A stretch of DNA of 64,000 bases, from assembly GCA_947588905.1 (NCBI GenBank), contig CANQBB010000002.1, positions 170 through 64,169 of the forward strand, written 5' to 3'. Under the pieces are notes generated by a model. That model was not told the origin of the DNA and made no database searches. It saw only the letters and a program-made list of their open reading frames with translations. Source of the DNA: an uncultured Clostridia bacterium. Its GTDB lineage: Bacteria > Bacillota > Clostridia > TANB77 > UBA1234. The position numbers were made by a program, and so were the translations under genes. Shown here piece by piece: positions 2,875 through 28,461 of this stretch. How positions within the stretch are numbered: the stretch's first letter is position 1; each line of letters begins with the position of its first letter.

Positions 2875-4314
2875 TTAAACAGTGTAAATACCACCAATAT
2901 TTTTACTTGAAGATACTCCAAATAAATTTGTTTTACTAAAAGTATCACTTTCACCTATAACAATTGTATCTCCTTCAAAAATATAATTACATCCTTTTGC
3001 TATTTCTATTCCTTCTCTAATCATATCTGAAGCGACTTCAGATTTTTTTACTACTATTGGATAAACACCCCATGTCATACTAAGTTGTCTAGCAGTTGTT
3101 TCATCTGGTGTTATCAAATAAACAGGACATGCAGGTCTAAAACTAGATATAGCATTTAAAGTATTTCCATGTGCAGACAAAGCAAATATTGCTTTCGCGT
3201 GAGATTCCATTGCAACTTCACAAAGTGAATGACCTACAATTAAATTTGGACGACTTCCGACAAGATGTGAAGTTTCTTTTCTCGAAAACTTGTTCCAATA
3301 ATCGATTCCATTTTCTATTGTTTCTGCAATTTGTGCCATTGTTTTTACACTTTCAATTGGGAAACTACCAGCTGCAACTTCTCCAGATAACATTATTGTT
3401 GAAGCTCCATCAAATATTGCATTGGCAACATCATTTACTTCAGCACGAGTTGGTCTTGGATTTGTAATCATTGATTCTAACATTTGTGTTGCAACAATAA
3501 CTGTTTTTCCTTTTTTATTACATTTCTTTACAAATTCTTTTTGAAGTAGTGGAACTTTATCCATTGGGATTTCAACCCCCAAATCTCCACGTGCAACCAT
3601 TATTCCATCAACAACATCTAGTATTTTATCAAAGTTATCTACACCTTCTTGATTTTCTATTTTAGCAATTATTTTGATGTGAGAAGCATCATTTTCTTTT
3701 AATACTTCTTTTATTGCTAAAATGTCATCTACTTTTCTTACAAAAGATGCAGCAATTATATCAAATCCATTTTTAATTCCAAATATTATATCATCTTTAT
3801 CTTTATCAGTTAAAACAGGTAAATTTAATGATAAACCTGGTATATTTACACTTTTTCTATTTGTTAATTTACCACCATGTATAACTTCACATAGGACTTC
3901 TTTATTGACAATTTCTTTAACTTTTAATTCTATTATTCCATCATTTATAAGTATTTTTGTACCAACAGAGACATCTTCATACAAATGTGGATAGTTAACA
4001 AATACTTTTGAAAAATCACCAACACATGCTTCTTGAGAAAGTGTAAAATTTGCACCATCATGTAAAATTGCCATATCATTTTCAAAAGTACCAATTCTTA
4101 TTTCGGGTCCTTTTGTATCAAGCATCATAGGAATAGGCATATTTAATTCTTCTCTAACAGCTTTAAATAGTTCTATTCTTTTTAATTGTTGTTCATAATC
4201 TCCATGAGAAAAATTAAATCTTGCAACATTCATACCTGCCGAAAATAATTTCGTTAAAGTTTTACAATCATCGACAGCTGGACCTAAAGTACAAACTATC
4301 TTTGTTTTTCTCAT
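2875..4314 (-). CDS. pyk: pyruvate kinase
   Basis: 479 aa. The N-terminus MRKTKIVCTLGPA...NFSHG...MLDTKGPEIR matches the canonical pyruvate kinase fold along its full length. Confidence 0.95.
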   Translation of the reverse strand: MRKTKIVCTLGPAVDDCKTLTKLFSAGMNVARFNFSHGDYEQQLKRIELFKAVREELNMPIPMMLDTKGPEIRIGTFENDMAILHDGANFTLSQEACVGDFSKVFVNYPHLYEDVSVGTKILINDGIIELKVKEIVNKEVLCEVIHGGKLTNRKSVNIPGLSLNLPVLTDKDKDDIIFGIKNGFDIIAASFVRKVDDILAIKEVLKENDASHIKIIAKIENQEGVDNFDKILDVVDGIMVARGDLGVEIPMDKVPLLQKEFVKKCNKKGKTVIVATQMLESMITNPRPTRAEVNDVANAIFDGASTIMLSGEVAAGSFPIESVKTMAQIAETIENGIDYWNKFSRKETSHLVGSRPNLIVGHSLCEVAMESHAKAIFALSAHGNTLNAISSFRPACPVYLITPDETTARQLSMTWGVYPIVVKKSEVASDMIREGIEIAKGCNYIFEGDTIVIGESDTFSKTNLFGVSSSKNIGGIYTV

Positions 4315-4331
4315 TAGTTAATTCACCTCTT

Positions 4332-6935
4332 TTAATCTTGATTTGTAAGCCATTTACAAAGACCAAGATCTTGATTATTTATAAGTAATGGATTAGTAGG
4401 AGTAATTCTAAATGTATATCCATAATTTCCACCATTATTGATTATTATATTAGCTGAATATTCATATTTTGATTCATCCAATGTATTTGATAATTGCATA
4501 GGTACATACATACTATCTACCATTTTATTTGTATCATCAAATTTACCATAGAATATTTCAACAGAAACATCGTTAGGCGAGATTGATGGAAGTGTTACTG
4601 TACATTTCATTTCAATAGAATCTCCAGCATTAGCAGAAAGTTCTTCTAAGTTAGTATTAGATTCAATAATAATATTATTCCAATTTTCACGAATTCCTTT
4701 TTCCCATTCAATATAACTTTCAACATTTTCTTTAGTATAGAAATTTGAATTTGTTAATCTAATTTGTGGCATATACAATTTATTTAAATAATCAACAAGC
4801 ATTCTACCAGTATTATAAACTCCACCAACAGATTTTATTGAATTTTTCATTCTTTGTATCCACCTAGTGTTTTCTGCCATATTAGATTTTTCATAATATA
4901 ATGGAATTATTTCATTTTCAAGAATATTATATATGCTTTGAGAATCGCTATTATCTTGAATTTCATAATTATTATATTCAGTGTCATCTCCAATTGCCCA
5001 GCCATTTTGCTTATTATATCCTTCATACCACCAACCATCTAGAATGCTAAAGTTGATTACACCATTTAGTCCAGCTTTTTCTCCACTTGTTCCACTAGCC
5101 TCTAAAGGTCTTCTTGGATTGTTAAGCCAAATATCTACACCACTAACTAAATACCTAGCAATATACATATTATAATTTTCTAATATTACAACTTTACCTT
5201 TGAATTGTGGCATGTTGGAAATTTCATATATTTTCTTAACTAAATCTTGTCCTTGAACATCAGCTGGATGAGGTTTACCTGCAAAAATAATTTGAACAGG
5301 TTTAGTTGGATTATTTAAAATATTTGTAATTCTTTCTAAATCTCTAAATATTAAATCTGCACGTTTATACGTTGCAAATCTTCTTGCAAAACCTATTGTT
5401 AATGCATTAGGATCTAGTATTTTATCTATATCATTGATTTCTTCTAATGAAGCTCCATTTCTAATTTTTTGTTCTCTAATATTTTTTCTAACTAATTTAA
5501 CTAATTTCTTCTTTTGAACCATGTGTGCTTCCCATAATTTTTCATCAGGGATACTATCTATATCATTCCAAACTTCACGATCATATGCTTTTTCTTGCCA
5601 GAATGGTCTCATATATGTGTTATATAAATCTTTTAATGTTGGAGCAAGCCATGTGCATGTATGAACACCATTGGTAACATATGTTATAGGTATTTCTTCT
5701 GTTTGAATGTTTGGCCATAACTCGGCAAATAATTTTTGAGAAACACCACCATGAAGTTTACTAACACCATTTTTCTTTCCTGCAATTTTTAGAGCGAGAA
5801 CTGCCATGTTAAAACCTTGAGTATATGTGTTATCATATTTAGTTCCTAGATTTAAAAATTCTGTTCTTGTTATTCCAAGTTCATTGCAATAATTAAAGAA
5901 ATATTTATCCATTAAATCAATAGGGAAAATATCATTACCTGCTGGAACTGGAGTATGAGTTGTGAATATTGTACAAGTAGAAGCCATTTTCTTTGCTACT
6001 TCAAAAGATACATTTTTCTCTTGCATGAAATTTCTGATTACTTCTAAAGTAACAAATGAAGAATGTCCTTCATTCATGTGAAATATTGTTGGATGTATAT
6101 TAAGTTTATTTAATAAATGCATACCACCAATTCCTAAAATAATTTCTTGTGAAATACGCATTTCTTGGTTACCGCCATATAGTTTTAAAGTAAGACCTCT
6201 ATCAATATCTGTATTTAAACCTATATCGCTATCCATTAAATATAATGAAATTCTTCCTACATTGATTTTCCAAATTTTTAAATAAATAATTCTATCAGGA
6301 AATTGTAAAGGAATTACAAGCTCATTTCCATCTTCATCATAAACAGGTAGTATTGGTAAATCAGAGATGTTTGTTGGAGAATAATCAAATAATTCAGAAC
6401 CATCTTTATTTATATATTGACTAAAATATCCTTGCTTATACAGCAAACCAACTGCAACAAAAGGAATACCTAAATCGCTAGCAGATTTGCAATGGTCACC
6501 TGATAATATTCCAAGACCACCTGCATAAAGTGGTAGTATTTCATCAAGCCCATATTCTGCAGAAAAATATGCAATCATATCATTTTGATTTTCTGGGAAA
6601 TGTTCTGAATAATATGTATTCTTATTATTAAGATAACCATTAAAGTTGTCTATAACCATATTATATTCTTTCAAGAAGTCTTCATCTTCAGAAACTTCTA
6701 TTAAACGTTGTTGATTTATTTCAGAAAGAAATTTGACAGGATTTTTATTTACCTTTTCAAATAAATTAGAATCAATGTAGTCATATAATCTTAAAGCATA
6801 AGAGTTCCATGACCACCATAAATTATTAGCAAGTTTTGATAACTCCGAAATCTTTTCAGGTAATTGGGGAGTTACAGTAATTTTTCCAAATAAGTACACT
6901 AAAATTTCCTCCTTTGTATAATAATTTACATACAA
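4332..6935 (-). CDS. glgP: alpha-glucan phosphorylase (GT35 family, glycogen/maltodextrin phosphorylase type)
   Basis: 867 aa, the length and overall layout of the bacterial/archaeal alpha-glucan phosphorylase family, including the region corresponding to the pyridoxal-phosphate site. It ends 17 nt upstream of pyk on the same strand. Confidence 0.8.
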   Translation of the reverse strand: MYVNYYTKEEILVYLFGKITVTPQLPEKISELSKLANNLWWSWNSYALRLYDYIDSNLFEKVNKNPVKFLSEINQQRLIEVSEDEDFLKEYNMVIDNFNGYLNNKNTYYSEHFPENQNDMIAYFSAEYGLDEILPLYAGGLGILSGDHCKSASDLGIPFVAVGLLYKQGYFSQYINKDGSELFDYSPTNISDLPILPVYDEDGNELVIPLQFPDRIIYLKIWKINVGRISLYLMDSDIGLNTDIDRGLTLKLYGGNQEMRISQEIILGIGGMHLLNKLNIHPTIFHMNEGHSSFVTLEVIRNFMQEKNVSFEVAKKMASTCTIFTTHTPVPAGNDIFPIDLMDKYFFNYCNELGITRTEFLNLGTKYDNTYTQGFNMAVLALKIAGKKNGVSKLHGGVSQKLFAELWPNIQTEEIPITYVTNGVHTCTWLAPTLKDLYNTYMRPFWQEKAYDREVWNDIDSIPDEKLWEAHMVQKKKLVKLVRKNIREQKIRNGASLEEINDIDKILDPNALTIGFARRFATYKRADLIFRDLERITNILNNPTKPVQIIFAGKPHPADVQGQDLVKKIYEISNMPQFKGKVVILENYNMYIARYLVSGVDIWLNNPRRPLEASGTSGEKAGLNGVINFSILDGWWYEGYNKQNGWAIGDDTEYNNYEIQDNSDSQSIYNILENEIIPLYYEKSNMAENTRWIQRMKNSIKSVGGVYNTGRMLVDYLNKLYMPQIRLTNSNFYTKENVESYIEWEKGIRENWNNIIIESNTNLEELSANAGDSIEMKCTVTLPSISPNDVSVEIFYGKFDDTNKMVDSMYVPMQLSNTLDESKYEYSANIIINNGGNYGYTFRITPTNPLLINNQDLGLCKWLTNQD

Positions 6936-6995
6936 TTTAATTATCTCTTAACATAGTAAAAAAGTCAATTGATAAAAGTAAATTTTACTAATTAT

Positions 6996-7589
6996 TTAAT
7001 TTTTAAAAATACTTTTAATTATATAATTTAGATAATCTAATGAAGTTAAATTTGATAGAAATAATTGTATAATCATTTCTATGAATTCTTCTAGAAAATC
7101 ATAATAATTTTTCATTGAAAAGTTAATAAAACAATCTACTTGTATATAATTTGTTTTTCTAAAATTTTTTAATAAACATGATAAAATAATTTGTTGCCTG
7201 TATAAAAAGAATTCTTGAGAATATTCAATAGGTGAGTCCTTACTTAAAATTAAATTGATTATATTATTGATTTTATTTAAAGAACTATTTTCAAAATAAA
7301 AATAGTTATAATGCAAAATCCTTTTTACAATTGTTTTCTCATATTTTTCAATTATTAAATCAGATAAAATCAAAGACAAGCATGTATATAAATAAATGTA
7401 ATTTCCATAAAAGTTTTTACTATTTTCCATTATATTTTTATTGTAATAATTAAAGCATTTAATTACTAAAGTTTTTTCTCCATTTATTTTTCTTGAAAGA
7501 AATTTAATATTTGGATATTCATATAAACTATCAATTAAGTCATTTATAATATTTGAAGTATTAGATTTTATAATTATAGATTTTGGCAT
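6996..7589 (-). CDS. hypothetical protein (197 aa), first gene of the putative glgP-pyk transcription unit
   Basis: ORF with a plausible ribosome-binding site. Very AT-rich, Leu/Ile/Asn/Tyr-rich. No family recognised. Confidence 0.35.
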   Translation of the reverse strand: MPKSIIIKSNTSNIINDLIDSLYEYPNIKFLSRKINGEKTLVIKCFNYYNKNIMENSKNFYGNYIYLYTCLSLILSDLIIEKYEKTIVKRILHYNYFYFENSSLNKINNIINLILSKDSPIEYSQEFFLYRQQIILSCLLKNFRKTNYIQVDCFINFSMKNYYDFLEEFIEMIIQLFLSNLTSLDYLNYIIKSIFKN

Positions 7590-7748
7590 TTACAATTCAC
7601 CTCAAAGATATTGTTTTACTATTTAAAATAATTATTCTAAATATACTATTCTTTTCCAATGAAAAAAGATAATGAATTAAATAAAATCTATTGAAAAAAA
7701 AACTGGTTATTGTATAATAGAATTAAATATACTATGAGGTGAAAAAGA

Positions 7749-10700
7749 ATGAAAATCATTGAAAAGGTACTAAAGAATAAATTGTCACAATATGGATATA
7801 ACGTTGATACTATTTCAGAAAAATTGAAACAAATTGATTTTGATCTTATTGACAATCAAATTGCTTTTGAAAATGAAGCTGAAAACTTTATTACTATAAA
7901 AGAATATAATGAGCCAACAGTCGAGATTGCAAGAATGTTGGCTAATTATAATAAATATTACATACAAAATATGATTATTGAAGGAGAAATAAATTATACA
8001 ACAGCAATGTCATCAATCAACACAGTTATGCCTGTCGTTGATTATAAACTTTCTAATAGCATTTGCATTGTTGCTACAACTACAGCATTAAATGTTGAAG
8101 TAATTATTTATAGCCCAGATGCACGTGTTGCACAAATGTATGGAAATCAAACGTATGAAAATGCTTTTTCAGATGAAAGAAATAAAATAGCAAAAGAATA
8201 TTATGATGCTTTTGTTGAAAATGGTAGAGTGCCAGAAATAAAAGTAAAAGGAATCTTAGCATTGCTTTTATCTGAATATGTAATAGATGAATTAACTATA
8301 ACTGGTGCAAACCCTAAAATTAAAATGTATGATAATGTTGATGCATATGCAGAAAATATAACAGAGTATAAAATAAAATATATAAATAGAAAGACAAATA
8401 AAGTTGAACTTGCTCATAAACCAATATATATAAAAAGACTTGGCACAGGAGTTTCTGCGGGATTTATAAGCAATGATCCATATATAAAATTAGACAATCT
8501 TCCAGAAGGAGCAGATTTTCCTTTAAATGTAATTTCATATTATTGGACAAATGCTACTAGAAATAAAAAAGAAGAAATATCAATATATATAGCAACTAAG
8601 CCATATGGAAATTATAAAACATATAAAGAATATAGAGAAAATAGCAGTAATAAATATGGAGAGCTTATTAACGCATTAGTTCTACAATTCCAAAAAGAAA
8701 CTGGATTTAGTATTGATAGAGAGTATATATCAAATGTTTTAAAAAAATTAAATCCAGAACTTATATATCCATCTATGGATATTATTAGAGATTGTATGGA
8801 TAATCCTGCTGATCCTGTAGAACCTATTAGATACAAATATAAAGCTATATCTGTTCCTGAAGATTTTGAAAGCAGATTATATATCTCTATTGAAGACAAT
8901 TTAGGAAAAAGATATAAATATAAATTAACTGAAAATGTATTAGATGATTTAACTAGAGTTGGAAATAAATTAGAGTACACAGGTGAAGATGGTAATATAG
9001 TCAGAAAGCAATCAGTAGCTGACTTCAACGTTAATGCTTGTACAGCTATCATAAGAAGAGAAACTCTAATTGATTCTACTCAGATTCCAGGACTTTTGGG
9101 ATACATTTATGAGGATGTTGAATATATTGGAACAGATATGCTTCCAGTTCCAAGTATAGAAGTTGATTTCTATTTTCCATTATTAGCTAAAAGTGAAATT
9201 TCAATGTTTAATGGAACTAACTTTGAATCAGATATGGCTAGCTTTGAAAACGCAAATAAATTTAATGCTACAGATGGAAATACTGTTATAGATACTATTC
9301 CAGGAACTACATATGCAGTTGTTAGATATGTTAATTCTAAAGGAGAAGTACTTAAAGAAAATAAAATAACAAATCTTTTCCCTGGAACACCATATGTTCC
9401 TGAAATTATACCTATAATAAATGATATAAATGGATTGGAATGGGTTTGCTCAAATTCTCAATATCCTTCTACCGTTATTAACATGATACCAGAATACAAT
9501 GTCATAGAAATAAAATATGTTGAAAAATTTTCAAAAGTAACTATTGTATATTTAAATAGAGAAGGTAAAAAAATATGTGATGATGTAATAGAAACTTTGC
9601 AAGCTGGTACAACATATGATTTATCTAAGAAAATGCAATATACTGATGAACAAAATAATGATTGGCGATTAGTTACAGCCAGACCTCAAAAACTTCTTGT
9701 AAAAGATGATGAAAGTAAAAACAATATAATTCTAATATATGATTTAGAAAAAGAACCTGTTAAGGTTAGATTCTTAAAACCTGATGGAGAAGAAGTAAAA
9801 GAAGCATTAGTAAAAGATTTTCAAGTTGGAAAACAATATACTTTACAAGTTGATAGGATAATTATTGATAAAGAGGGACTTGGCTGGGTATATAACGGAA
9901 AGAATCCTGTATCATGTATGGTTGAAGAAGATAAAGAAAATCTAATAGAAGTTACATATGAAGAATATAAACTTCCAGTCGTTGTAAAATATCAAACTGA
10001 AGATGGAGTTGTTATTTTAAACGATTATGTTGAATATTTACAGGTTGGTAAAGAATTTATTCCAAAATATGAAAATGATGTAACAGATTTTAAATTAAAG
10101 AGATGGAAATTTAAATCTTTAAATAAAAAAGAGTTGATAGTTTCAAAAAATAAAGATGAAAACGAAATAAAAGTTATTTATGAACCTTTACTTGCAAATG
10201 TATTTATACAGCTATTTGATGAAATGGGTAAGAAGATAATAAGCCCTATACAAAAAGAAGCTCAAATAGGTGGAGAATTTTCATCTGGCTTTTTAGATGA
10301 TATTACAGATAACTATGGAAAAATGTGGACAAAAGCAGATGAACCAAAAACATTGATAGTTAGTGATATTGAAGCCGAAAATAATATAACAATAAAATAT
10401 AAACCTCTTATAGTTAAAGTTGTTGTTAAGTTTTTTGATGATGAAAGAAATGAACTAATTCCAAGCAAAAATTATGAAAGACAAGCTGGTACAAAATTTA
10501 TACCAGAAATCATAAAAAAATTAGAATCATCTGACGGAAGAAAATGGATTTATAATGATGAAAAGAATTCTGAAGTTACGGTAAGAAAGAATGAAGAAGA
10601 AAACATTGTTTCTATTTTTTATGATAAGGAACTAACAGATGTAAGATTAGAATTTATGGATGCATATAACAATGTGATAAGAGATAGTACAGTAGTACAA

Positions 10701-13700
10701 GCACAAATAGGTAGTGTGTTTAACGAAAGACTTTTTGAAAAGGTAGAAGATAGAGAAGGTTGCAAATGGATGCTAGAATCTTCTGAACCAAAGAAGATGG
10801 TTGTTAAAGTTGATAATAATAACTTTAAGTTATTCTATGGTGAAATGAAAGCAATAGTTATTGTTAAACATATTAACGTAAATACAAATAAAAGTATTAT
10901 TGATGACATAGTGGCAAAAGTAAAACTTGGAGGAGTGTTTGTTCCAAATATTCCAGAAAAAATATTTGATTCTAACAAGCTACAATGGAGTTTCATAGGA
11001 GATAAGAATTTTTCTATTGTTGTAAAAGAAAACGAACAAGAAAATATAGTAATGCTTCAATATGATGAAACATTGGCAAAAGTAAATGTAAAATACCAAG
11101 ATACATATAATAATAAATTGCGTGATGATATAGATTATGATTATCAGATTGGTAAAGATGTAGACTTAAAGAATATGGAAAAATTTATCGACAACAATGG
11201 AATAGGCTGGAAACTACAATCTTCAAAAACTAAAAATAATAAAGTACAAGAATCTGGTAACGAAGTTGTAAATACTTATGAGCCTTGGTATTCAGAAGTT
11301 AAGGTTAGATATTTAAATGATAAAGATGAAGAAATTGCTGATCCTTTCGTTAAAAAGATACAAGTTGGTAGAGGATTTAAACCAACTTATGAAAATAGAA
11401 TAGAAGATGGAATAGGCTTATTATGGACATATTCTTCTATATCAGAAGAAGAAATTAAATTATCGGAAAACGGCAATACAATTGATGTTAAGTATGAACC
11501 AGTATATTCAAATGTTACAGAAAGATTATTTAATAAGGCTGAAGAAAAAATCGGTGATGAAATTGTAAATAAATATCAAGTTGGAAGTAATATAAAATTT
11601 ACTCCAGAAGAAATATATGTTGATAGTGAAACTAAAAAGTGGAACTTTATCAAAGTTGATAGACCTTCAATACGTGTTAAAGAAAGTGAAGAACAAAATA
11701 TTGTTAATAGAGTTTATGAACCAAGAATGACAGATTTAATAGTAAAAATGCTTGATGATAATAGTAATGAAATTGCCGACCAAAAGAAATATTCTGTACA
11801 AGTTGGAAGTATTTACAAAGCTAATGTTCCAAAAACACATATTGATAAGAAGACAGGATTAGGATGGGCACTTCCTGAAAATCCTGAAGATACTATGAAA
11901 GTAGATGAAGATAAATCTAAAAATATTCTTTCTGTAAAATATATTAAATATATGGTAAAAGTTACAGATAGAATTGTAGATTTAGATAAGAATATTATAA
12001 TTCCTGATACAGAAAAAATGTTGCAAGTTGGTACTACATATGCACCTCATATAGAACAAGTTTTGAATGACCAAGAAGGAAAAGAATGGTTGTATAATGA
12101 AAAACGTAAAAAAGATTTATTGTTTGATAGTGCTGAACAAGCAAAAGCATTTAAAGGTGAAAAACTTGAAATAACAGTATCAGAAGATGAAGAGAAAAAT
12201 ATTGTATTTCTTAAATATAAGCCATCTCTTGAAAAAGTTACTATTAAGTATCAAAATGATTTAGGAGAAATAATTGCTCCTGAAGAAGAAGTTGATGCTC
12301 AAATAGGTAGTGTATTTACACCTAACATAAAAGAAATGGTTGTAGATAGTAAGAAAAATAAATGGGCATATAACCCTAATAGTAAATCTACTATTACAGT
12401 AAGCAGAGATAAGACAAAGAATCTTATAGTTCTTTCTTATGAAGAAGAAAAGGCACCAATAATTTATCTTTATTGCGATGAATATGATAATGAACTTAGA
12501 GAGCCAAAGAAAAAATTGGCACAAATAGGTAGCATATGTACTCCTGAGATAGATAGTATTGTTTCTGATAATGAAGGAAAAGTATGGGAATATAAATCTG
12601 CTAATGTAGATAAAATAACTGTAAAAGATTCAGAGAAAGATAATATAGTTAAAGTTACATATGTTCCATTACTTATGGATGTAAAAGTGTACTTTAAAAG
12701 TAGAAAAGGAGAACTAATAGGAAGCGAGACACAGAAGGCTCAATTAGGAAGTACATTTAAACCTGCAACGAATGAAACTATAAATGATAAAGATTCTAAG
12801 ATGTATCGAATAATTGGTTGTGAACCTGAAGAGTTAGTTATTAAAGAAAATCCTATTGGTGTTGAAGAAGAAATAAATAAATTTAATGTTTCTTATGATC
12901 CTGTATTTAGCGATATTACAACGGTATATCAAGATGTAGATGGTAACAAACTAAAAGATGATGAAGTTATTCAATTACAAGTTGGTACAAAATATACTCC
13001 AAAGTTAATTCAATTTGTTAAAGATAGAAAAGGTATTCAATGGCAAAATATATCTGAAACAGTTGATGCTATTAGAGTTATGGAAGATCCAAAATCTAAT
13101 ATAATTAAAATGACATTTGAATTAGCTAAAGCAGAAGTTCTAGTTAGATATAAAGATATAGATGGAAATATTATTAGAGAATCTGAACGATTTGATTCTA
13201 AGATTGGTGAAGAATTTGTACCTAAGATAGAAGATATAATAGAAGATGCTAAAAGTAGAAAATGGGTATTTTCTATGGCTGACCCAGTTAAATTAACTGT
13301 TGGAAGTATAAATAATATTATAAATTTGATATATCAAGAAAAGAAAGTACCTGTTGTAATAAAGTATGAGACAATAGATGGTAAAAAACTAAAAGAAGAT
13401 ACAAAAGTAAATGTACAGGAAGGTTCACAATATACACCTAAAAAGAATTATCCTATTATATATGATGAAAATAATGAGATGTGGAGATACTTAGAGTTTA
13501 GACCATCGTCACTACTAGTAACAGATAAAGATTCTGAAAATATTATTATTCAAGTTTATGACAATAAAGAAGAAAGTGAAAGAAAGCCTGTACTAGAAAA
13601 TCCATTTGCCAATACACTTACTGAAGAAGAAATGAAGATTGTTGAAGAGCAAACTGCAAAAATTGAAATGCAGAAGAAAGAAGAAGAAATGGCAAAAGAA

Positions 13701-14531
13701 AGAGCAGCTGCTAATAATACTGAAGAAGAAATATTTAAGGATAAAAATTTAATAGATTTATCAAGAAGTGTTGTATTAGAAAACAATGAAAAACAAGCAA
13801 TTGTTAAATTAAATGAACTTAATAAAAAGATAATTGGTGAACTAAATACTATGAAGACATCATTTGACTTAAATATGAAAGATTCAGTTCTTAGAAATAT
13901 TAGTCAATACATGCAAGAAGAAAAAGATATTATCGAAAAAGAATTAAGTGACATGATTACAAATGATAAATCTGGAAAGAAGTTTATGAAAGTATTAGAA
14001 GCAATTGTACAAGATGATTTTGAATATTCAAAAATGCAACAGAGAAAAAATGTTTTATTAACAGATTATTTTGTAAATTCAAAAATTTCAGCAAATGAGC
14101 AAGCTAACTATATATGTGAGCGTGGAAAGAATGAAAAAGGATTATTAGTATTGCAAGAAAAAATAAAAAATGAAAAGAAGAATATAGCTGAATTACAAAA
14201 ATTATTTATTGAGATGATATATGAAAGAGCAATGTTAGATAATTATTACAAGACTAGAACCAAGGCAAAAGATGATTACTTTATAAATGAAGCAGATAGA
14301 AATTCTATGGGTTCAGAAATTGTTATTCTTGTAACCAATATATTACCACGACAAGCTTATAGTATATTACAAAAAGATACTAATATATCTTTAGCACAAG
14401 AAAATGAATTAGATGCAATAATAAATCTATTAACACCACAACAAAGGACAACGTTGGAAAAGATGGTAGATGATACAAAAGATAATAGATTAAAGAAATC
14501 AATGCAAAAGAGATTGAAAAATATTACATAA
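7749..14531 (+). CDS. giant repetitive protein (2260 aa): N-terminal about 520-aa unique domain, about 19 tandem 74-aa MucBP-like beta modules, C-terminal about 350-aa coiled-coil-like region; no signal peptide
   Basis: Single uninterrupted ORF with the ribosome-binding site GAGGTGAAAAAGAATG. The modules repeat the pattern V.V.Y.D..G..I......Q[VI]G..[FY].P.......D..G..W........ENI[IV].V.YEP. The N-terminus is not hydrophobic. The C-terminus is rich in E/K heptad-like stretches. Confidence 0.8.
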   Translation: MKIIEKVLKNKLSQYGYNVDTISEKLKQIDFDLIDNQIAFENEAENFITIKEYNEPTVEIARMLANYNKYYIQNMIIEGEINYTTAMSSINTVMPVVDYKLSNSICIVATTTALNVEVIIYSPDARVAQMYGNQTYENAFSDERNKIAKEYYDAFVENGRVPEIKVKGILALLLSEYVIDELTITGANPKIKMYDNVDAYAENITEYKIKYINRKTNKVELAHKPIYIKRLGTGVSAGFISNDPYIKLDNLPEGADFPLNVISYYWTNATRNKKEEISIYIATKPYGNYKTYKEYRENSSNKYGELINALVLQFQKETGFSIDREYISNVLKKLNPELIYPSMDIIRDCMDNPADPVEPIRYKYKAISVPEDFESRLYISIEDNLGKRYKYKLTENVLDDLTRVGNKLEYTGEDGNIVRKQSVADFNVNACTAIIRRETLIDSTQIPGLLGYIYEDVEYIGTDMLPVPSIEVDFYFPLLAKSEISMFNGTNFESDMASFENANKFNATDGNTVIDTIPGTTYAVVRYVNSKGEVLKENKITNLFPGTPYVPEIIPIINDINGLEWVCSNSQYPSTVINMIPEYNVIEIKYVEKFSKVTIVYLNREGKKICDDVIETLQAGTTYDLSKKMQYTDEQNNDWRLVTARPQKLLVKDDESKNNIILIYDLEKEPVKVRFLKPDGEEVKEALVKDFQVGKQYTLQVDRIIIDKEGLGWVYNGKNPVSCMVEEDKENLIEVTYEEYKLPVVVKYQTEDGVVILNDYVEYLQVGKEFIPKYENDVTDFKLKRWKFKSLNKKELIVSKNKDENEIKVIYEPLLANVFIQLFDEMGKKIISPIQKEAQIGGEFSSGFLDDITDNYGKMWTKADEPKTLIVSDIEAENNITIKYKPLIVKVVVKFFDDERNELIPSKNYERQAGTKFIPEIIKKLESSDGRKWIYNDEKNSEVTVRKNEEENIVSIFYDKELTDVRLEFMDAYNNVIRDSTVVQAQIGSVFNERLFEKVEDREGCKWMLESSEPKKMVVKVDNNNFKLFYGEMKAIVIVKHINVNTNKSIIDDIVAKVKLGGVFVPNIPEKIFDSNKLQWSFIGDKNFSIVVKENEQENIVMLQYDETLAKVNVKYQDTYNNKLRDDIDYDYQIGKDVDLKNMEKFIDNNGIGWKLQSSKTKNNKVQESGNEVVNTYEPWYSEVKVRYLNDKDEEIADPFVKKIQVGRGFKPTYENRIEDGIGLLWTYSSISEEEIKLSENGNTIDVKYEPVYSNVTERLFNKAEEKIGDEIVNKYQVGSNIKFTPEEIYVDSETKKWNFIKVDRPSIRVKESEEQNIVNRVYEPRMTDLIVKMLDDNSNEIADQKKYSVQVGSIYKANVPKTHIDKKTGLGWALPENPEDTMKVDEDKSKNILSVKYIKYMVKVTDRIVDLDKNIIIPDTEKMLQVGTTYAPHIEQVLNDQEGKEWLYNEKRKKDLLFDSAEQAKAFKGEKLEITVSEDEEKNIVFLKYKPSLEKVTIKYQNDLGEIIAPEEEVDAQIGSVFTPNIKEMVVDSKKNKWAYNPNSKSTITVSRDKTKNLIVLSYEEEKAPIIYLYCDEYDNELREPKKKLAQIGSICTPEIDSIVSDNEGKVWEYKSANVDKITVKDSEKDNIVKVTYVPLLMDVKVYFKSRKGELIGSETQKAQLGSTFKPATNETINDKDSKMYRIIGCEPEELVIKENPIGVEEEINKFNVSYDPVFSDITTVYQDVDGNKLKDDEVIQLQVGTKYTPKLIQFVKDRKGIQWQNISETVDAIRVMEDPKSNIIKMTFELAKAEVLVRYKDIDGNIIRESERFDSKIGEEFVPKIEDIIEDAKSRKWVFSMADPVKLTVGSINNIINLIYQEKKVPVVIKYETIDGKKLKEDTKVNVQEGSQYTPKKNYPIIYDENNEMWRYLEFRPSSLLVTDKDSENIIIQVYDNKEESERKPVLENPFANTLTEEEMKIVEEQTAKIEMQKKEEEMAKERAAANNTEEEIFKDKNLIDLSRSVVLENNEKQAIVKLNELNKKIIGELNTMKTSFDLNMKDSVLRNISQYMQEEKDIIEKELSDMITNDKSGKKFMKVLEAIVQDDFEYSKMQQRKNVLLTDYFVNSKISANEQANYICERGKNEKGLLVLQEKIKNEKKNIAELQKLFIEMIYERAMLDNYYKTRTKAKDDYFINEADRNSMGSEIVILVTNILPRQAYSILQKDTNISLAQENELDAIINLLTPQQRTTLEKMVDDTKDNRLKKSMQKRLKNIT

Positions 14532-14543
14532 TAAAAAATAAAA

Positions 14544-14586
14544 AAGAAGAGGTTGTATAAAATTTAACAGCCTCTTCTTTTTATTG
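14544..14586. terminator. bidirectional intrinsic terminator (AAGAAGAGG-TTGTATAAAATTTAACAG-CCTCTTCTT)
   Basis: A 9-bp stem with A-run and T-run on either side. It lies between the giant gene and the convergent GH57 gene. Confidence 0.65.
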
Positions 14587-14604
14587 TTTAAATTAGTGAC
14601 AAAA

Positions 14605-16185
14605 TTATTTATAAAGTGTGTAATCTATATCCGGAAATATCAAATCTTTATATTCAATGTCTTCTAAATATTCTTCATTTATTTCATTCTTATCTATCAT
14701 ATCAGCAAGTGCATTAAATCTTCCAATATGATCTTTAACACGTTTATGAGCATATTCAACCATAGTATTTGCAGTTATTATAAAAGGCCAGTCACTACTT
14801 TGAGCAAGAAGCAATTCTCTTGCACATTGTTTCAATGCTCTTTCTTGCAATGGATATGGTTTTTGATATGTTTGAGCTAAATATTGCATTCTTTCAGCTG
14901 CATTGTGTAAATGTCTATATATATAATCGTTCGCAGGATTTAACCATACCTCATTAAAACCATGTGCTCCCCATGTAGATATAGATGGATTTGATTCTTG
15001 TATATTTGGAAATTTATTAAGATATTCGGTAGGAGTTATTAGTTCAATGGTATCCTGATTATAATGAATTTTTTTAAATAAAACATATAACCAATAAGGA
15101 CCTTCATACCACCAATGTCCATATAGTTCTGCATCATATGGACAAGTTATTATTGGAGGTATTTTCATATCATTACAAACAGAATTAACTTGCTCAATTC
15201 TAGAACTAATAAAATGGTCTGCCTGAAGTTCAGCAACTCCCATAGCATTATCTTTATTGTATAATTCTTTTTGATTTGTTTTTCCTGTAATTTTATAATA
15301 TTTTAATCCAGTATCAACTCTATGACCACTACGTGATACATATCTTTTTATATATTCCCATTCTGATTCATAACCAATATCTTTATAAAATTCTCTATAA
15401 TTTGGATCACCTGGGTAACCACAAATTGAACTCCAAACTTGTTTAGAACTTTCATTATCTCTTCCAAAAGCAACTAAACCATTTGAAGATATAATTGGAG
15501 CTAAGGTACCATATAAAGGTTTTGGATTGGCATTTAATATTCCATGAGTTTCTAAGAACACATATTTTATTCCGTATTTTAATAATGTTGATTCTAGTTC
15601 TGGTATATATGCACATTCAGAAAGCCACATTCCATTTGGATTTCTACCAAATGCTTTTTTATATGTATCTACACCTGTTGCAATTTGTACTTCAACTGCA
15701 GATGGATTAACGTTTAACAAAGGCAAAAATCCATGTGTTGCGGGACAAGCTATTATCTCTAAAACTCCTATATCTTGAAAATGCTTAAAAGCTTCTACTA
15801 AATCAGAATTATATTTTCGTTTATAAAAAATATAATATTCTTTAAAATTCCAAAAATACATTTTTGCTAAATCATTTAATTGCTTGTTGTCTTTTGTTCT
15901 TTTAATTTCTTTACCAGCTAATCTAATTCTTTCAATAAGATACATTCTATATCTTGCTTGAAGTAAAGGATCTTTTAGCATAGTGATTAGTGGAGGACTT
16001 ATATTCATAGTTATTCTAAATTTAATATTTTCATCTACGAGTTTTTGAAAATAAATTAAAAGAGGAATATAAGTTTCAGAAATGGCTTCGAACAGCCATC
16101 TTTCTTCTATATATTCCTCAGTTTCCGGATGCCTTACATACGGTAAATGTGCATGCAAAACAATATTTAAATATCCTTTTGGCAT
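14605..16185 (-). CDS. 1,4-alpha-glucan branching enzyme, glycoside hydrolase family 57
   Basis: 526 aa. The N-terminal LNIVLHAHLPYVRHPE is the GH57 signature. The size fits a GH57 branching enzyme. Confidence 0.85.
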   Translation of the reverse strand: MPKGYLNIVLHAHLPYVRHPETEEYIEERWLFEAISETYIPLLIYFQKLVDENIKFRITMNISPPLITMLKDPLLQARYRMYLIERIRLAGKEIKRTKDNKQLNDLAKMYFWNFKEYYIFYKRKYNSDLVEAFKHFQDIGVLEIIACPATHGFLPLLNVNPSAVEVQIATGVDTYKKAFGRNPNGMWLSECAYIPELESTLLKYGIKYVFLETHGILNANPKPLYGTLAPIISSNGLVAFGRDNESSKQVWSSICGYPGDPNYREFYKDIGYESEWEYIKRYVSRSGHRVDTGLKYYKITGKTNQKELYNKDNAMGVAELQADHFISSRIEQVNSVCNDMKIPPIITCPYDAELYGHWWYEGPYWLYVLFKKIHYNQDTIELITPTEYLNKFPNIQESNPSISTWGAHGFNEVWLNPANDYIYRHLHNAAERMQYLAQTYQKPYPLQERALKQCARELLLAQSSDWPFIITANTMVEYAHKRVKDHIGRFNALADMIDKNEINEEYLEDIEYKDLIFPDIDYTLYK

Positions 16186-16201
16186 TTAATTATACCTCCG
16201 T

Positions 16202-16726
16202 TTATTTTTGTAAATTATTCATTGAACTATATGTATCATCATAATCACCAAATGATAATTCAGTGTATTTCTTAAGAGTTTTTCTATTTTGAGTGTATAT
16301 TTTAAATTTATCTGTAATTGAAAGACAGATACAATTTCTAAATATAATATCTTCATTAAATTCACATGGAGAACTTCTTGGAATATGAGTTTGATTTGAA
16401 GATGAAATTAAAAAAGTTTTATCTTGATATTTTCTTAACAATTCAATTTTATAATCACAATCTGAATCTTTAACTTCGATATAGTAATTATTTGAAAATG
16501 GACTAATTTGTATTTCATAAGAGTAGTTCATCGTCAAATTGGTTATTCTTAAAAAAGGAGTGCAATTTTCGTATTTTTCATTTTGCTTAGAAAATGTTTG
16601 TATATCTTTGTCAGAAATATCCCAATAGGCAAACATTCTAGTTGGAGACTGCACTAGTAATTTTACACTAGTTTTGTCATATTTAGTTGGTAAATCATAA
16701 TATTCTGACTTAAAACTGCGTACCAA
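16202..16726 (-). CDS. DUF4912-like protein commonly paired with GH57 branching enzymes
   Basis: 174 aa, immediately upstream of and co-directional with the GH57 gene. Sequence-level assignment to DUF4912 is from memory only. Confidence 0.55.
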   Translation of the reverse strand: MVRSFKSEYYDLPTKYDKTSVKLLVQSPTRMFAYWDISDKDIQTFSKQNEKYENCTPFLRITNLTMNYSYEIQISPFSNNYYIEVKDSDCDYKIELLRKYQDKTFLISSSNQTHIPRSSPCEFNEDIIFRNCICLSITDKFKIYTQNRKTLKKYTELSFGDYDDTYSSMNNLQK

Positions 16727-21317: not shown

Positions 21318-22880
21318 ATGTTAAGGAAGACATTTTATGTATTGACAATTATAATGGTTTTATTACTTTGTAATATAACTTTTGCTGTCGATATAAAATT
21401 GAATGATGATGATATAGAAGTTAATTCTGTAAAATTATCAGGTGAAAATATTGAAGGTGTGTTTCTATCTAAAAATATGAATAATGGTGGGAGCGATGAT
21501 GAAGCATTAAAATCAAATATTGAAGTGAATAATGTTATAACAATTAGTAAGGCAGGAGAATACATATTTACTGGTAATTTATCTGATGGACAGATTGCTA
21601 TTGATGCTAATCAAATAGTTGGAGATGTTAAAATAATTTTAGATAATGCGAATATAGAGTGTAAAAATGCTCCAGCAATATTTGTATATTGCAAAGATAT
21701 TAACAATGATAAGTGTAATGTAATTATTTCACCTAAAGAAGGAACTGAAAATGAAATAAAGGGTGGAAAAATAAAAGTAGATGCAATGAATTTTAAAAAT
21801 CAAGATGAAATATTATATTATATAGAAAAGGATACAGATGAAACTGGAGAATATTATGAGAAATATAAATATGATGGTGCAATAAGTTCAGATATTTCTA
21901 TAACATTTGACGGAAAAGGAAAGTTAAAAATAATATCAACCGCAAAAGAAGGCATTGAATCTAAAATGAATATTACAATTAATGATGGAGAATATGTAAT
22001 AAATTCTTTAGATGATGCTATCAATGCTGCAGCAGATAAAAAGAGTGTTATAACAATAAATGGTGGTAAAGTAGTTGCATATTTATTACATGAAGCAGAA
22101 GAAGGAGATGGTATTGATTCAAATGGATACATCTATATAAATGGAGGAACAGTATATTGTTTTTCATGTCCGGGAGCAGACAATGGATTAGACTCTGAAT
22201 TAGGGACTTATATAAATGGTGGAGAAGTTTTTTCAATTGGAAGTATGAATGATAATTTTATTATTTCTAATTCTATAAATTCAGTTAGAGCAACATTTAG
22301 ACCAGAAATAAATACTGATGAATATATTTGTGTGGCAGATGAAAATGAAAATATAGTTTTCGGAATTAAAGCAGATAGAAAGATAGGTAATTTTTTCTAT
22401 ACATCTGAAAAATTAGAAAAAGGAAAAAGTTATAATGTTTATACGAATATTACTTTGAATGGTGAAACAAATGAATATAATATGTATAATAGTTATATTT
22501 CAGGAGATTTTTCTAATGCTGTAAAAAATGAATTCACTGATATAAGACCAAATTTTATAGGAGAATTCAATGAAGAAAAAAACATTTTTATTCCAATTAT
22601 AGCTTTAATATTTGCAAGTGTTTTATTTATAATTATGCTTATTGTTGATATGAGAGATGATAAGACATCGGCCAAATTGAAGGTTGTTAATTTAGTTATG
22701 GGAATAATTATAGGATGCTTATTAGTTATAGGAATATATATGCTTAATCCAGTTAATAGTAGAACGGTTAATAGAATAAATGTTAAGTATGAAAATAATA
22801 TTAAAAGACCAGATGAATTTAATAGAAATGAAAATATGAATAGGCCTCAAGAATCAATACCTAATAATGATGTTATATAA
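21318..22880 (+). CDS. secreted, C-terminally membrane-anchored protein (520 aa)
   Basis: N-terminal signal peptide (MLRKTFYVLTIIMVLLLCNITFA), a Gly/Asn-rich beta-type central region, two C-terminal transmembrane helices and a charged tail. Ribosome-binding site AGGAGGATATATAAATAATG. Confidence 0.6.
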   Translation: MLRKTFYVLTIIMVLLLCNITFAVDIKLNDDDIEVNSVKLSGENIEGVFLSKNMNNGGSDDEALKSNIEVNNVITISKAGEYIFTGNLSDGQIAIDANQIVGDVKIILDNANIECKNAPAIFVYCKDINNDKCNVIISPKEGTENEIKGGKIKVDAMNFKNQDEILYYIEKDTDETGEYYEKYKYDGAISSDISITFDGKGKLKIISTAKEGIESKMNITINDGEYVINSLDDAINAAADKKSVITINGGKVVAYLLHEAEEGDGIDSNGYIYINGGTVYCFSCPGADNGLDSELGTYINGGEVFSIGSMNDNFIISNSINSVRATFRPEINTDEYICVADENENIVFGIKADRKIGNFFYTSEKLEKGKSYNVYTNITLNGETNEYNMYNSYISGDFSNAVKNEFTDIRPNFIGEFNEEKNIFIPIIALIFASVLFIIMLIVDMRDDKTSAKLKVVNLVMGIIIGCLLVIGIYMLNPVNSRTVNRINVKYENNIKRPDEFNRNENMNRPQESIPNNDVI

Positions 22881-28447: not shown

Positions 28448-28461
28448 GAGGAGAGTGTAGT

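What the first reader, a model, noticed from the sequence alone, without database searches (positions are those of the whole stretch)
7749..14531. A 2260-aa cytoplasmic-looking protein made of about 19 tandem MucBP-like modules, inside a glycogen gene cluster
MucBP-type beta modules (V.V.Y.D..G......QVG..F.P....D..G..W.....ENIV.V.YEP, about 74 aa each) normally occur in a few copies in secreted, cell-wall-anchored LPXTG adhesins. Here about 19 diverged copies sit in a protein with no signal peptide and no sortase motif. It has a unique 520-aa N-terminal domain and a 350-aa E/K-rich coiled-coil tail. The repeats are diverged at DNA level, so this is an old, maintained array and not a recent expansion. 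The gene sits between the glgP-pyk unit and the GH57/GT4 genes, with the cotJ operon and spoIVA nearby. That placement suggests a spore-coat or exosporium, or glycogen-granule-associated, structural role. I know of no described protein with this architecture.
Basis: partly seen in the sequence, partly recalled or inferred. Interest (0 to 1): 0.75.

Follow-up and report, generated by a model that had tools for sequence, protein, structure and literature searches.

The report
Giant signal-less 19-module MucBP rod protein
This is a real, conserved 262-kDa protein of uncultured gut and rumen Clostridia built from exactly 19 MucBP modules with no export signal; its shorter relatives sit inside type VII secretion gene clusters, so it may be an unusual secreted fibre rather than a glycogen or spore protein.

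Summary
ORF 7749-14531 (+) encodes 2260 aa: an orphan N-domain (1-516), 19 contiguous diverged MucBP modules (517-1940), a variable E/K-rich linker and a conserved orphan helical C-domain (about 2011-2260). It has its own conserved sigma-A-type promoter and terminator. There is no signal peptide, TM segment, LPXTG or hidden upstream signal.

The family is very rare: 38 clusters among 1.84 billion proteins, all from Clostridia MAGs and metagenomes. Every complete "giant" (at least 15 loci, down to 34% identity) has exactly 19 modules in positional orthology.

All but one truncated locus lie between GH57 and ytxC/glgP. An outgroup has GH57-YtxC adjacent without the giant. The glycogen context is therefore one ancestral insertion, which is weak functional evidence.

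All four lineages of short paralogues (N-domain plus 3-7 modules, no C-domain) sit in compact type VII secretion clusters (EssC, an 83-aa protein, the short form, a WXG100 protein).

Best reading (about 0.33): a Sec-independent, T7SS-linked, fixed-length surface fibre. Rivals are an intracellular glycogen scaffold (0.2), another cytoplasmic role (0.2) and a spore-coat protein (0.07, disfavoured by the promoter). The function is untested and the architecture is undescribed.

The parts
7691..7718 (+). Sigma-A-type promoter TTGAAA-16 nt-TATAAT, preceded by TG
   Evidence: Best sigma-70-like match in 7400-14800, 11 of 12 positions. TTGAAA-N16-18-T(G/A)TATAAT is conserved upstream of the giant gene in all clades, including relatives of about 37% identity.
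7639..7649 (+). Box 1, AAATATACTAT (possible operator; function unknown)
   Evidence: The exact motif occurs only twice in the 64 kb window, both times in this intergenic region. It is conserved in the close clade only.
7725..7735 (+). Box 2, AAATATACTAT, between the -10 hexamer and the RBS
7736..7741 (+). Ribosome-binding site GAGGTG, 7 nt before the ATG
   Evidence: conserved in orthologues.
7749..14531 (+). Coding sequence of the 2260-aa, 262-kDa, pI 5.0 giant protein
7749..9296 (+). Orphan N-terminal domain (aa 1-516). Residues 1-380 are confidently modelled as mixed alpha/beta; residues 381-516 are poorly modelled but the most conserved stretch.
9297..13568 (+). 19 contiguous diverged MucBP modules (aa 517-1940) with no linkers between them
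13569..13778 (+). Variable E/K-rich low-complexity linker (aa 1941 to about 2010)
   Evidence: Length and sequence are not conserved among giants. Identity across deep giants is 31%. The model is low-confidence helix and coil here.
13779..14528 (+). Conserved orphan all-helical C-terminal domain (aa about 2011-2260; motifs DKxG, QxRK, DYF, YICERGK, YYKxR..KDxYF)
   Evidence: 40 invariant columns in 9 giants. No Pfam, PDB or Foldseek match. Present in all giants and absent from short forms.
14536..14589 (.). Intrinsic terminator hairpin flanked by A and U runs, likely bidirectional and shared with the convergent GH57 gene
   Evidence: RNA fold gives -21.2 kcal/mol, z = -7.6 against shuffles.
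6996..7589 (-). Context: divergent YtxC-like gene, first gene of the ytxC-glgP-pyk unit (2875-7589)
   Evidence: PF08812, 55.7 bits. It flanks the giant in the closer clade. In an outgroup a full-length YtxC directly follows GH57.
14605..16726 (-). Context: convergent GH57 branching enzyme and DUF4912 genes
   Evidence: conserved downstream of the giant.

Best explanation
The gene encodes a Sec-independent, fixed-length rod protein from a small protein family whose ancestral home is a compact type VII secretion (T7SS) gene cluster.

Shown here. The anatomy is an orphan globular N-terminal head, 19 linker-less and individually conserved MucBP modules, a floppy E/K-rich linker and a conserved helical C-terminal domain. 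The gene is monocistronic and is transcribed from a conserved vegetative (sigma-A-type) promoter. It arose from a short form (head plus 3-7 modules ending in modules R17-R19), either by internal expansion (R7-R16) or with those modules lost in the short forms, plus gain of the C-domain. It was inserted between GH57 and ytxC in the ancestor of one clade of uncultured gut and rumen Clostridia.

Inferred. The protein folds in the cytoplasm and is exported by an EssC-type T7SS encoded elsewhere in the genome. That would explain the lack of a signal peptide and sortase motif and the cytoplasm-like composition. It would then stand on or beyond the cell surface as a fibre of roughly 65-75 nm. This length assumes about 3.5-4 nm per module, which is my recollection of MucBP structures and was not measured here. 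The conserved module number would set the reach, and the head and C-domain would be the two functional ends (attachment and binding). I put this specific reading at about one third. About 0.4-0.45 of the probability lies with readings in which the protein stays inside the cell.
For: No Sec signal, TM segment or LPXTG in any of more than 20 family members, and no hidden upstream signal.

The modules are true, though diverged, MucBP modules, a family otherwise overwhelmingly extracellular.

All four short-form lineages are embedded in T7SS clusters. L014-16 carry WXG100 (TIGR03930, 48.8 bits against a cutoff of 44.85), then EssC (TIGR03928, 961 bits against 778), then an 83-aa protein, then P0020. 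L033 carries EssC (946 bits), the 83-aa protein and P0025, bounded by map and infA. L032 carries the 83-aa homologue, P0023 and WXG204. L013 carries P0022, WXG204 and a YwqH-like protein. The 83-aa proteins are mutually homologous (E = 1e-27 to 1e-39) and so are the WXG204 proteins (E = 1e-69 to 1e-95).

Short forms and giants share the whole N-domain (29-39% identity) and the terminal modules R17-R19.

There is precedent for lineage-specific large components with repeated beta domains in T7SS variants: TsdI with Ig-like domains, and EsaA, both described as spanning the envelope (PMC11217815).

The giant evolves fast compared with its neighbours (36-62% against 62-88% identity), as surface proteins often do.

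The glycogen context is explained by a single insertion.
Against: No T7SS gene lies in the 64 kb window or within 10 kb either side of any giant gene, and the giant has no adjacent WXG/Lap-type partner gene.

The N-terminus is not a WXG/LXG-type long helical hairpin.

The C-domain is not homologous to the WXG204 partner of the short forms (hhalign probability 0.15%).

No cell-wall-binding domain was found.

By the logic of Garrett et al. 2024, a conserved T7SS-cluster protein without a signal peptide or TM segment would be predicted cytoplasmic, so the short forms could be cytoplasmic components rather than cargo.

A 262-kDa folded beta-rich rod would be an unusual T7SS cargo.

The composition is even more charged than this organism's cytoplasmic proteins (DERK 33% against 27 +/- 3%).

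Strict copy-number constancy is atypical of surface adhesin stalks.

Co-occurrence of giants with a T7SS in the same genome could not be tested.
Confidence: 0.33

Rival explanations
1. Intracellular glycogen (granulose) granule scaffold or ruler. The protein stays in the cytoplasm. Its many weakly glycan-binding modules and its two end domains would tether or space glycogen particles or glycogen enzymes at a fixed distance.
For: Every complete giant lies between glgP-pyk (with or without ytxC) and GH57-DUF4912/GT5, across lineages whose giants are only 34-62% identical, while outer flanks and small insertions vary. The gene shares a divergent promoter region with the ytxC-glgP-pyk unit. No export signal is present. 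Composition is cytoplasm-like. Fixed module number and positional orthology suit a ruler. MucBP modules occur in alpha-glucan enzymes, including the signal-less Amy11 (PMC5814915). The module profile's only PDB sequence hit is Amy10.
Against: An outgroup has GT5 | DUF4912-GH57-YtxC without the giant, so the location is one insertion event plus inheritance. SpoIVA is inherited in the same block without being a glycogen gene. One giant-type locus (L024) is not next to glgP within the 1.1 kb visible upstream. No CBM or other glucan-binding domain was found. The amylosome papers attribute starch binding to the CBMs, not to MucBP. The promoter motif is not shared with other glycogen promoters. All paralogues sit in T7SS contexts, not glycogen contexts.
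Confidence: 0.2
2. Cytoplasmic protein with a T7SS-related or other scaffolding role unrelated to glycogen. Examples are an assembly platform or adaptor acting at the cytoplasmic face of an EssC machine, or a cytoskeleton-like spacer.
For: The short forms hold a fixed position after the 83-aa protein in EssC clusters, like a core component, and lack a signal peptide or TM segment. The same criterion is used to call T7SS components cytoplasmic in PMC11217815. Repeat-less relatives (P0044 and a tandem 705-aa paralogue) lie between mnmG and rsmG near oriC with no secretion genes nearby. Composition is cytoplasm-like.
Against: MucBP modules are not known from cytoplasmic machines. The giant is encoded apart from any T7SS genes and is driven by its own strong promoter. 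No detectable relation exists between the modules and the 83-aa protein. No partner has been identified.
Confidence: 0.2
3. Spore coat or exosporium protein, made in the mother cell (so no signal peptide is needed) and deposited on the spore as an adhesive fibre.
For: The organism is a spore former with spoIVA and cotJC nearby. SpoIVA stays in the conserved block. YtxC is a sporulation-associated family. Mother-cell proteins need no export signal (general knowledge).
Against: The conserved upstream promoter is a near-consensus sigma-A type, and no CATA-type sigma-E/K -10 was seen by eye, in all clades. The SpoIVA adjacency is inherited with the older cluster. Paralogues are in T7SS operons, not sporulation operons.
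Confidence: 0.07
4. Extracellular adhesin or matrix protein released without a dedicated secretion system, by autolysis or a holin-like route.
For: MucBP modules and the lack of any signal. Signal-less clostridial proteins released through holin-like proteins or lysis are known (papers listed).
Against: No holin or endolysin gene lies next to any giant locus. There is no wall-binding domain. This route would not explain the T7SS-linked paralogues.
Confidence: 0.08
5. Annotation or assembly artefact, or a decaying pseudogene.
For: A few metagenomic copies are split or frameshifted (L004, L022, L033).
Against: Intact ORFs of 2227-2333 aa occur in at least 15 independent assemblies, with conserved promoter, RBS and terminator and position-specific conservation.
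Confidence: 0.01

Closest known systems
MucBP/Mub-type cell-surface adhesins of Lactobacillales and Listeria (L. reuteri Mub, PDB 4mt5 Mub-RV; L. lactis YwfG 7yl4; Listeria lmo0835 2kt7/2kvz; LBA1460 3q69)
   Same: Same module family: Pfam PF06458 above threshold, and the fold of module R1 matches these structures. Tandem arrays of modules form an elongated protein.
   Different: Those proteins have a Sec signal peptide and an LPXTG anchor, Thr/Ser/Gly-rich modules, and variable and often homogenised repeat numbers. This protein has none of these signals, highly charged modules and a strictly fixed 19 diverged modules, plus orphan N- and C-terminal domains.
Ruminococcus bromii pullulanases Amy10, Amy11 and Amy12 (GH13 with MucBP modules; PDB 7lst, 9qfa, 9qf8)
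   Different: They have 1-3 modules attached to a catalytic GH13/CBM48 core, with dockerins or CBM26. The giant has no catalytic or CBM domain, and no glucan-binding role of MucBP is reported.
Lineage-specific large components of type VII secretion variants (EsaA/YueB of T7SSb; TsdI with Ig-like domains; TsgL), Garrett, Higginson and Palmer 2024, PMC11217815
   Same: The short paralogues occupy a conserved place in EssC / ubiquitin-like-sized protein / WXG100 clusters, as these components do. They are large proteins with repeated beta domains that could span the wall.
   Different: EsaA and TsdI are membrane-anchored, whereas the short forms and the giant have no TM segment or signal. No described subtype (T7SSa to T7SSj) lists an N-domain/MucBP protein. 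The giant itself is not encoded in a T7SS cluster.
Canonical T7SSb substrates (WXG100, LXG toxins, TslA-type 'reverse' substrates)
   Same: No Sec signal; the paralogues are encoded next to essC and WXG100 genes; a helical domain sits at one end (the C-domain), reminiscent of reverse substrates (that last point is from my recollection).
   Different: No WXG100 or LXG match, no adjacent Lap/WXG partner or immunity gene at the giant locus, and the C-domain is unrelated to WXG204. The protein is far larger and beta-rich.

Membership tests
Pfam MucBP domain family (PF06458) | Sequence match to the family HMM above the gathering score | tested here: met
   Whole protein scores 75.3 bits against a cutoff of 23, E = 6.5e-21, with 5 stretches. 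Seven of 19 modules match on their own at E <= 0.01, and no other family matches.
Pfam MucBP domain family (PF06458) | Fold like solved MucBP domains | tested here: met
LPXTG-anchored MucBP adhesins (Mub type) | N-terminal Sec signal peptide | tested here: not met
   The N-terminus is hydrophilic, the maximum hydropathy is 1.5, and upstream in-frame stop codons are present. The same holds in all relatives. No SignalP-type predictor was available.
LPXTG-anchored MucBP adhesins (Mub type) | C-terminal LPXTG sortase motif followed by a hydrophobic anchor | tested here: not met
   No LPXTG-like motif in the window protein or in 11 relatives.
LPXTG-anchored MucBP adhesins (Mub type) | Binding to mucin or host glycans | not testable with these tools
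   Needs binding assays.
Type VII secretion substrates (WXG100 / LXG) | WXG100- or LXG-type helical hairpin targeting domain | tested here: not met
   No Pfam or NCBIfam hit. The model shows four short helices and then beta structure at the N-terminus. The C-domain has no match and is not related to WXG204.
Type VII secretion substrates (WXG100 / LXG) | Encoded at or next to essC, WXG100 or Lap partner genes | tested here: not met
   None in the window or within 10 kb either side of any giant. The feature is met for all four short-form paralogue lineages.
Type VII secretion substrates (WXG100 / LXG) | EssC-dependent export | not testable with these tools
   Needs genetics or proteomics.
Spore coat / exosporium proteins | Mother-cell (sigma-E or sigma-K) promoter | tested here: not met
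   The conserved upstream promoter is TTGAAA-N16-18-T(G/A)TATAAT, a sigma-A type. No conserved CATA-type -10 was seen. This is a motif-level test by eye only.
Spore coat / exosporium proteins | Presence in purified spores | not testable with these tools
   Needs spore proteomics; the organisms are uncultured.
Glycogen/starch-binding proteins (CBM20/21/25/26/48 type) | A recognised alpha-glucan-binding module | tested here: not met
   No CBM family in the Pfam or NCBIfam scans. No fold match for the N-domain.
Glycogen/starch-binding proteins (CBM20/21/25/26/48 type) | Conserved genomic association with glycogen genes that points to function | tested here: inconclusive
   The association is conserved in at least 15 loci, but it stems from one insertion into a pre-existing GH57-YtxC cluster, and L024 is an exception.

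The most novel reading that the evidence does not exclude
The protein never leaves the cell. It would be a fixed-length (19-module) intracellular ruler or tether that organises glycogen/granulose granules or the enzymes around them. That would make it the first dedicated bacterial glycogen-granule scaffold, built from a domain type thought to be extracellular and recruited from a type VII secretion component.
Probability: 0.17. Interest if true: 0.85.

Novelty: new variant of a known kind. Interest (0 to 1): 0.62.

Why it matters
If the T7SS reading is right, this family marks an undescribed compact T7SS arrangement in uncultured gut and rumen Clostridia (EssC, an 83-aa protein, a head-plus-MucBP protein, and a double-WXG100 protein). 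The giant would be among the largest candidate T7SS-dependent proteins, a Sec- and sortase-independent way to build a surface fibre in a Gram-positive bacterium.

If it stays inside the cell, MucBP modules have an intracellular life and bacteria have a titin-like ruler, possibly at glycogen granules.

Either way, the strict conservation of exactly 19 diverged modules down to 34% identity is an unusually clean natural case for asking why repeat number is fixed. The two terminal domains have no detectable relatives outside the family.

Tried and rejected
1. A hidden or frameshifted signal peptide upstream: rejected, because the in-frame upstream sequence holds several stop codons and the RBS and start are conserved.

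3. Rosetta-stone idea that the giant's C-domain is a fused WXG204 partner: rejected (hhalign probability 0.15%).

4. The modules as relatives of the small protein next to EssC: rejected. My impression that the 83-aa protein is EsaB/YukD-like rests on recollection of its sequence pattern and gene position only; Pfam and NCBIfam gave no hit.

5. L024 as a giant in a T7SS context: the 'LXG-like' hit was a Pro/Thr-rich low-complexity match.

6. A shared regulon motif with the other glycogen promoters: AAATATACTAT is confined to the giant's own upstream region.

7. A phage or mobile-element origin: no relatives in IMG/VR or in phage genomes.

8. Homology between the tail of the repeat-less P0044 and the C-domain: not significant.

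9. Evidence that MucBP binds alpha-glucan in amylosome enzymes: none found.

Full report
**1. Observation**

The window has one uninterrupted ORF at 7749-14531 (+) encoding 2260 aa. A GAGGTG ribosome-binding site lies 7 nt upstream of the ATG. Pfam MucBP matches well above threshold (75.3 bits against 23).

The modules are on average 24% identical to each other. They leave no repeat signal of about 225 nt in the DNA.

There is no LPXTG and no hydrophobic stretch of TM grade. The in-frame sequence upstream is full of stop codons, so a lost signal peptide is excluded. The only correction concerns the tail: it is a variable E/K-rich linker of about 70 aa plus a conserved helical domain of about 250 aa, not one 350-aa coiled coil.

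**2. Transcription unit**

The best sigma-70-type site in the region is TTGAAA-16-TATAAT at 7691-7718, about 30 nt from the start codon. TTGAAA-N16-18-T(G/A)TATAAT is conserved upstream of the gene in every clade of orthologues, including those only about 37% identical.

A strong hairpin with a U-run follows the stop codon (-21.2 kcal/mol, z = -7.6). The flanking genes are divergent upstream and convergent downstream, so the gene is monocistronic.

The motif AAATATACTAT occurs exactly twice in the 64 kb window, on either side of the promoter. It is conserved only in the close clade and is absent from the other glycogen promoters.

**3. Terminal domains**

Residues 1-380 of the N-domain are modelled with high confidence as a mixed alpha/beta structure. 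Neither that model nor sequence profiles find any relative in Pfam, NCBIfam or the PDB. The domain has 26 invariant residues, many of them polar, for example the YE..F..ER and NDPY motifs.

Residues 381-516 are the most conserved stretch of the whole protein among deep orthologues (52%) although they are poorly modelled.

The C-domain has 40 invariant positions among nine giants and no detectable relative.

**4. Family size and architecture**

The family is tiny. There are 9 and 3 hits among 5.8 billion proteins for the two end domains. There are 38 cluster representatives among 1.84 billion with an N-domain profile. All come from Clostridia MAGs and gut or rumen metagenomes. The only public name is 'MucBP domain-containing protein'.

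All six full-length cluster representatives and all complete genes in fetched loci have the head, exactly 19 modules and the C-domain. These loci are the window, L002, L003, L006-L010, L017-L020, L023, L025, L026 and L036.

Each window module matches its positional counterpart best in two orthologues, 19 of 19 in both. Global identity among giants falls to 34%, while the neighbouring enzymes stay 62-88% identical. The protein therefore evolves quickly but never gains or loses a module. That points to selection on length or on position-specific functions.

**5. Glycogen context**

In every complete locus the giant lies between glgP-pyk, with a YtxC-like gene in the closer clade, and GH57-DUF4912, then GT5 and usually spoIVA. 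Outer flanks differ and small insertions occur.

GH57 homologues show a gap between 72-88% identity (the giant clade) and 61% or less. In the outgroup locus L034 the order is GT5 | DUF4912-GH57-YtxC, with YtxC directly after GH57 and no giant. L035 has GT5 | DUF4912-GH57 followed by unrelated genes.

The giant was therefore inserted once, in the opposite orientation, between GH57 and ytxC of an older cluster, and was then inherited. SpoIVA is carried along in the same block. One truncated giant-type locus (L024) is not next to glgP. The synteny is real, but it counts as roughly one evolutionary event and is weak evidence of function.

No CBM is present. The amylosome literature attributes starch binding to CBMs, not to MucBP. 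It does show MucBP modules on alpha-glucan enzymes, including the signal-less Amy11.

**6. Type VII secretion context of the paralogues**

Four diverged short forms consist of the head plus 3-7 modules, always end with modules R17-R19, and lack the C-domain. All four are in T7SS neighbourhoods.
- P0020 follows a WXG100 protein, a bona fide EssC (961 bits against a cutoff of 778) and an 83-aa protein, in one operon seen on many contigs.
- P0025 ends a compact cluster bounded by map and infA: small helical proteins, a 520-aa protein, EssC (946 bits), the 83-aa protein and then the short form. No membrane protein other than EssC is present.
- P0023 sits between the 83-aa homologue and the 204-aa double-WXG100 protein.
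- P0022 is followed by that WXG100 protein and a YwqH-like protein.

Short forms have no promoter of their own. None of the published subtypes T7SSa to T7SSj lists such a component, although lineage-specific large components such as EsaA, TsdI and TsgL are the rule (PMC11217815).

Repeat-less relatives (P0044 and a tandem paralogue) lie between mnmG and rsmG with no secretion genes nearby.

**7. Weighing the readings**

For export by a T7SS:
- the family's home is in T7SS clusters;
- the modules are of an extracellular type;
- every Sec or sortase signal is absent;
- the protein evolves fast.

Against export:
- no T7SS or partner gene lies near any giant;
- there is no WXG/LXG-type targeting domain;
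- the C-domain is unrelated to WXG204;
- there is no wall-binding domain;
- the composition is more charged than this organism's cytoplasmic proteins and unlike its signal-peptide proteins;
- by the usual criterion the short forms would themselves be called cytoplasmic components.

The spore-coat idea conflicts with the conserved sigma-A-type promoter.

My probabilities are as follows. T7SS-linked exported fibre, about 0.33. Intracellular glycogen scaffold, about 0.20. Another cytoplasmic role, T7SS-related or not, about 0.20. Lysis- or holin-released adhesin, about 0.08. Spore surface protein, about 0.07. Artefact, about 0.01. The rest is unassigned.

What is shown is the anatomy, the conservation, the two genomic contexts and the absence of classical signals. 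The location and the partners are inferred.

**8. Novelty**

MucBP repeat proteins are well known, but I could find no description of this one. It has no export signal, orphan end domains, a fixed 19-module rod and kinship with a T7SS-cluster protein. I rate it a new variant of a known kind, of above-average interest, with a real chance of marking either an undescribed T7SS arrangement or an intracellular use of MucBP modules.

Noticed in passing
L014 20-13078; L033 719-12556; L032 3-4675; L013 208-9251: A compact type VII secretion gene set in uncultured low-GC Clostridia. It contains EssC with FHA domains, a conserved 83-aa protein (possibly EsaB/YukD-like, untested), a head-plus-MucBP protein of 780-1025 aa, a 204-aa double-WXG100 protein and Ser-rich large proteins. 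No other membrane component is visible in L033. It does not match any of the subtypes T7SSa to T7SSj described in PMC11217815 and may be a further subtype.
   Followed up: partly
L034 10001-12556; window 6996-7589: A YtxC-family gene (a sporulation-associated family of unknown function) directly follows the GH57 branching-enzyme gene in an outgroup Clostridia MAG. In the giant clade it heads the ytxC-glgP-pyk unit. This is a recurring YtxC-glycogen gene link that I have not seen discussed.
   Followed up: partly
window 7639-7649 and 7725-7735: The 11-mer AAATATACTAT occurs exactly twice in the 64 kb window, 86 bp apart, bracketing the giant gene's promoter. It is conserved in the close clade only. 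It could be an operator pair, or part of the divergent ytxC promoter.
   Followed up: partly
L011 7839-12454 (also L012): Two tandem paralogues (705 and 817 aa) have a distant version of the N-domain and helical tails but no MucBP modules. They are inserted between mnmG (gidA) and rsmG (gidB) in the oriC-proximal jag-mnmE-mnmG-rsmG-parAB cluster.
   Followed up: partly
window 8889-9296 (aa 381-516 of the giant): This is the most conserved stretch among deep orthologues (52% against 37% for aa 1-380), yet AlphaFold gives pLDDT below 50. It may be a partner-binding region that folds on binding.
   Followed up: no
window 32902-35373 (+): An 823-aa ORF with 36% charged residues, no TM segment and no Pfam family; another orphan protein.
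   Followed up: no
L036 1-4812 (-) and 4828-5427 (-): Beyond spoIVA in an in-clade genome (GCA_964317365.1) lies another very large gene (over 2168 aa, running off the locus, no Pfam hit) next to an SLH-domain protein.
   Followed up: no
L002 16853-20077: A four-gene block (AAA_14 + DUF4143 ATPase, a metallophosphoesterase, an HTH-Fic protein) is inserted between the giant gene and GH57 in one human-gut MAG. The junction therefore tolerates insertions.
   Followed up: no
L024 1119-4184: A giant-type gene (modules R1-R6 in order, contig ends) is not preceded by glgP or ytxC. Upstream are a Pro/Thr-rich ORF end and a 234-aa ORF. It is the only exception to the glycogen-cluster location.
   Followed up: partly
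L004 1049-4247; L022; L033 9685-12556: Some metagenomic copies of family members are split into two overlapping ORFs. These are frameshifts from assembly errors or real pseudogenisation.
   Followed up: no
window 21318-22880 and 27206-29844: Several exported proteins lie nearby: a Cthe_2159 carbohydrate-binding family protein and two copper-amine-oxidase-N-domain proteins with clear signal peptides. The organism therefore uses ordinary Sec signals for its surface proteins.
   Followed up: partly
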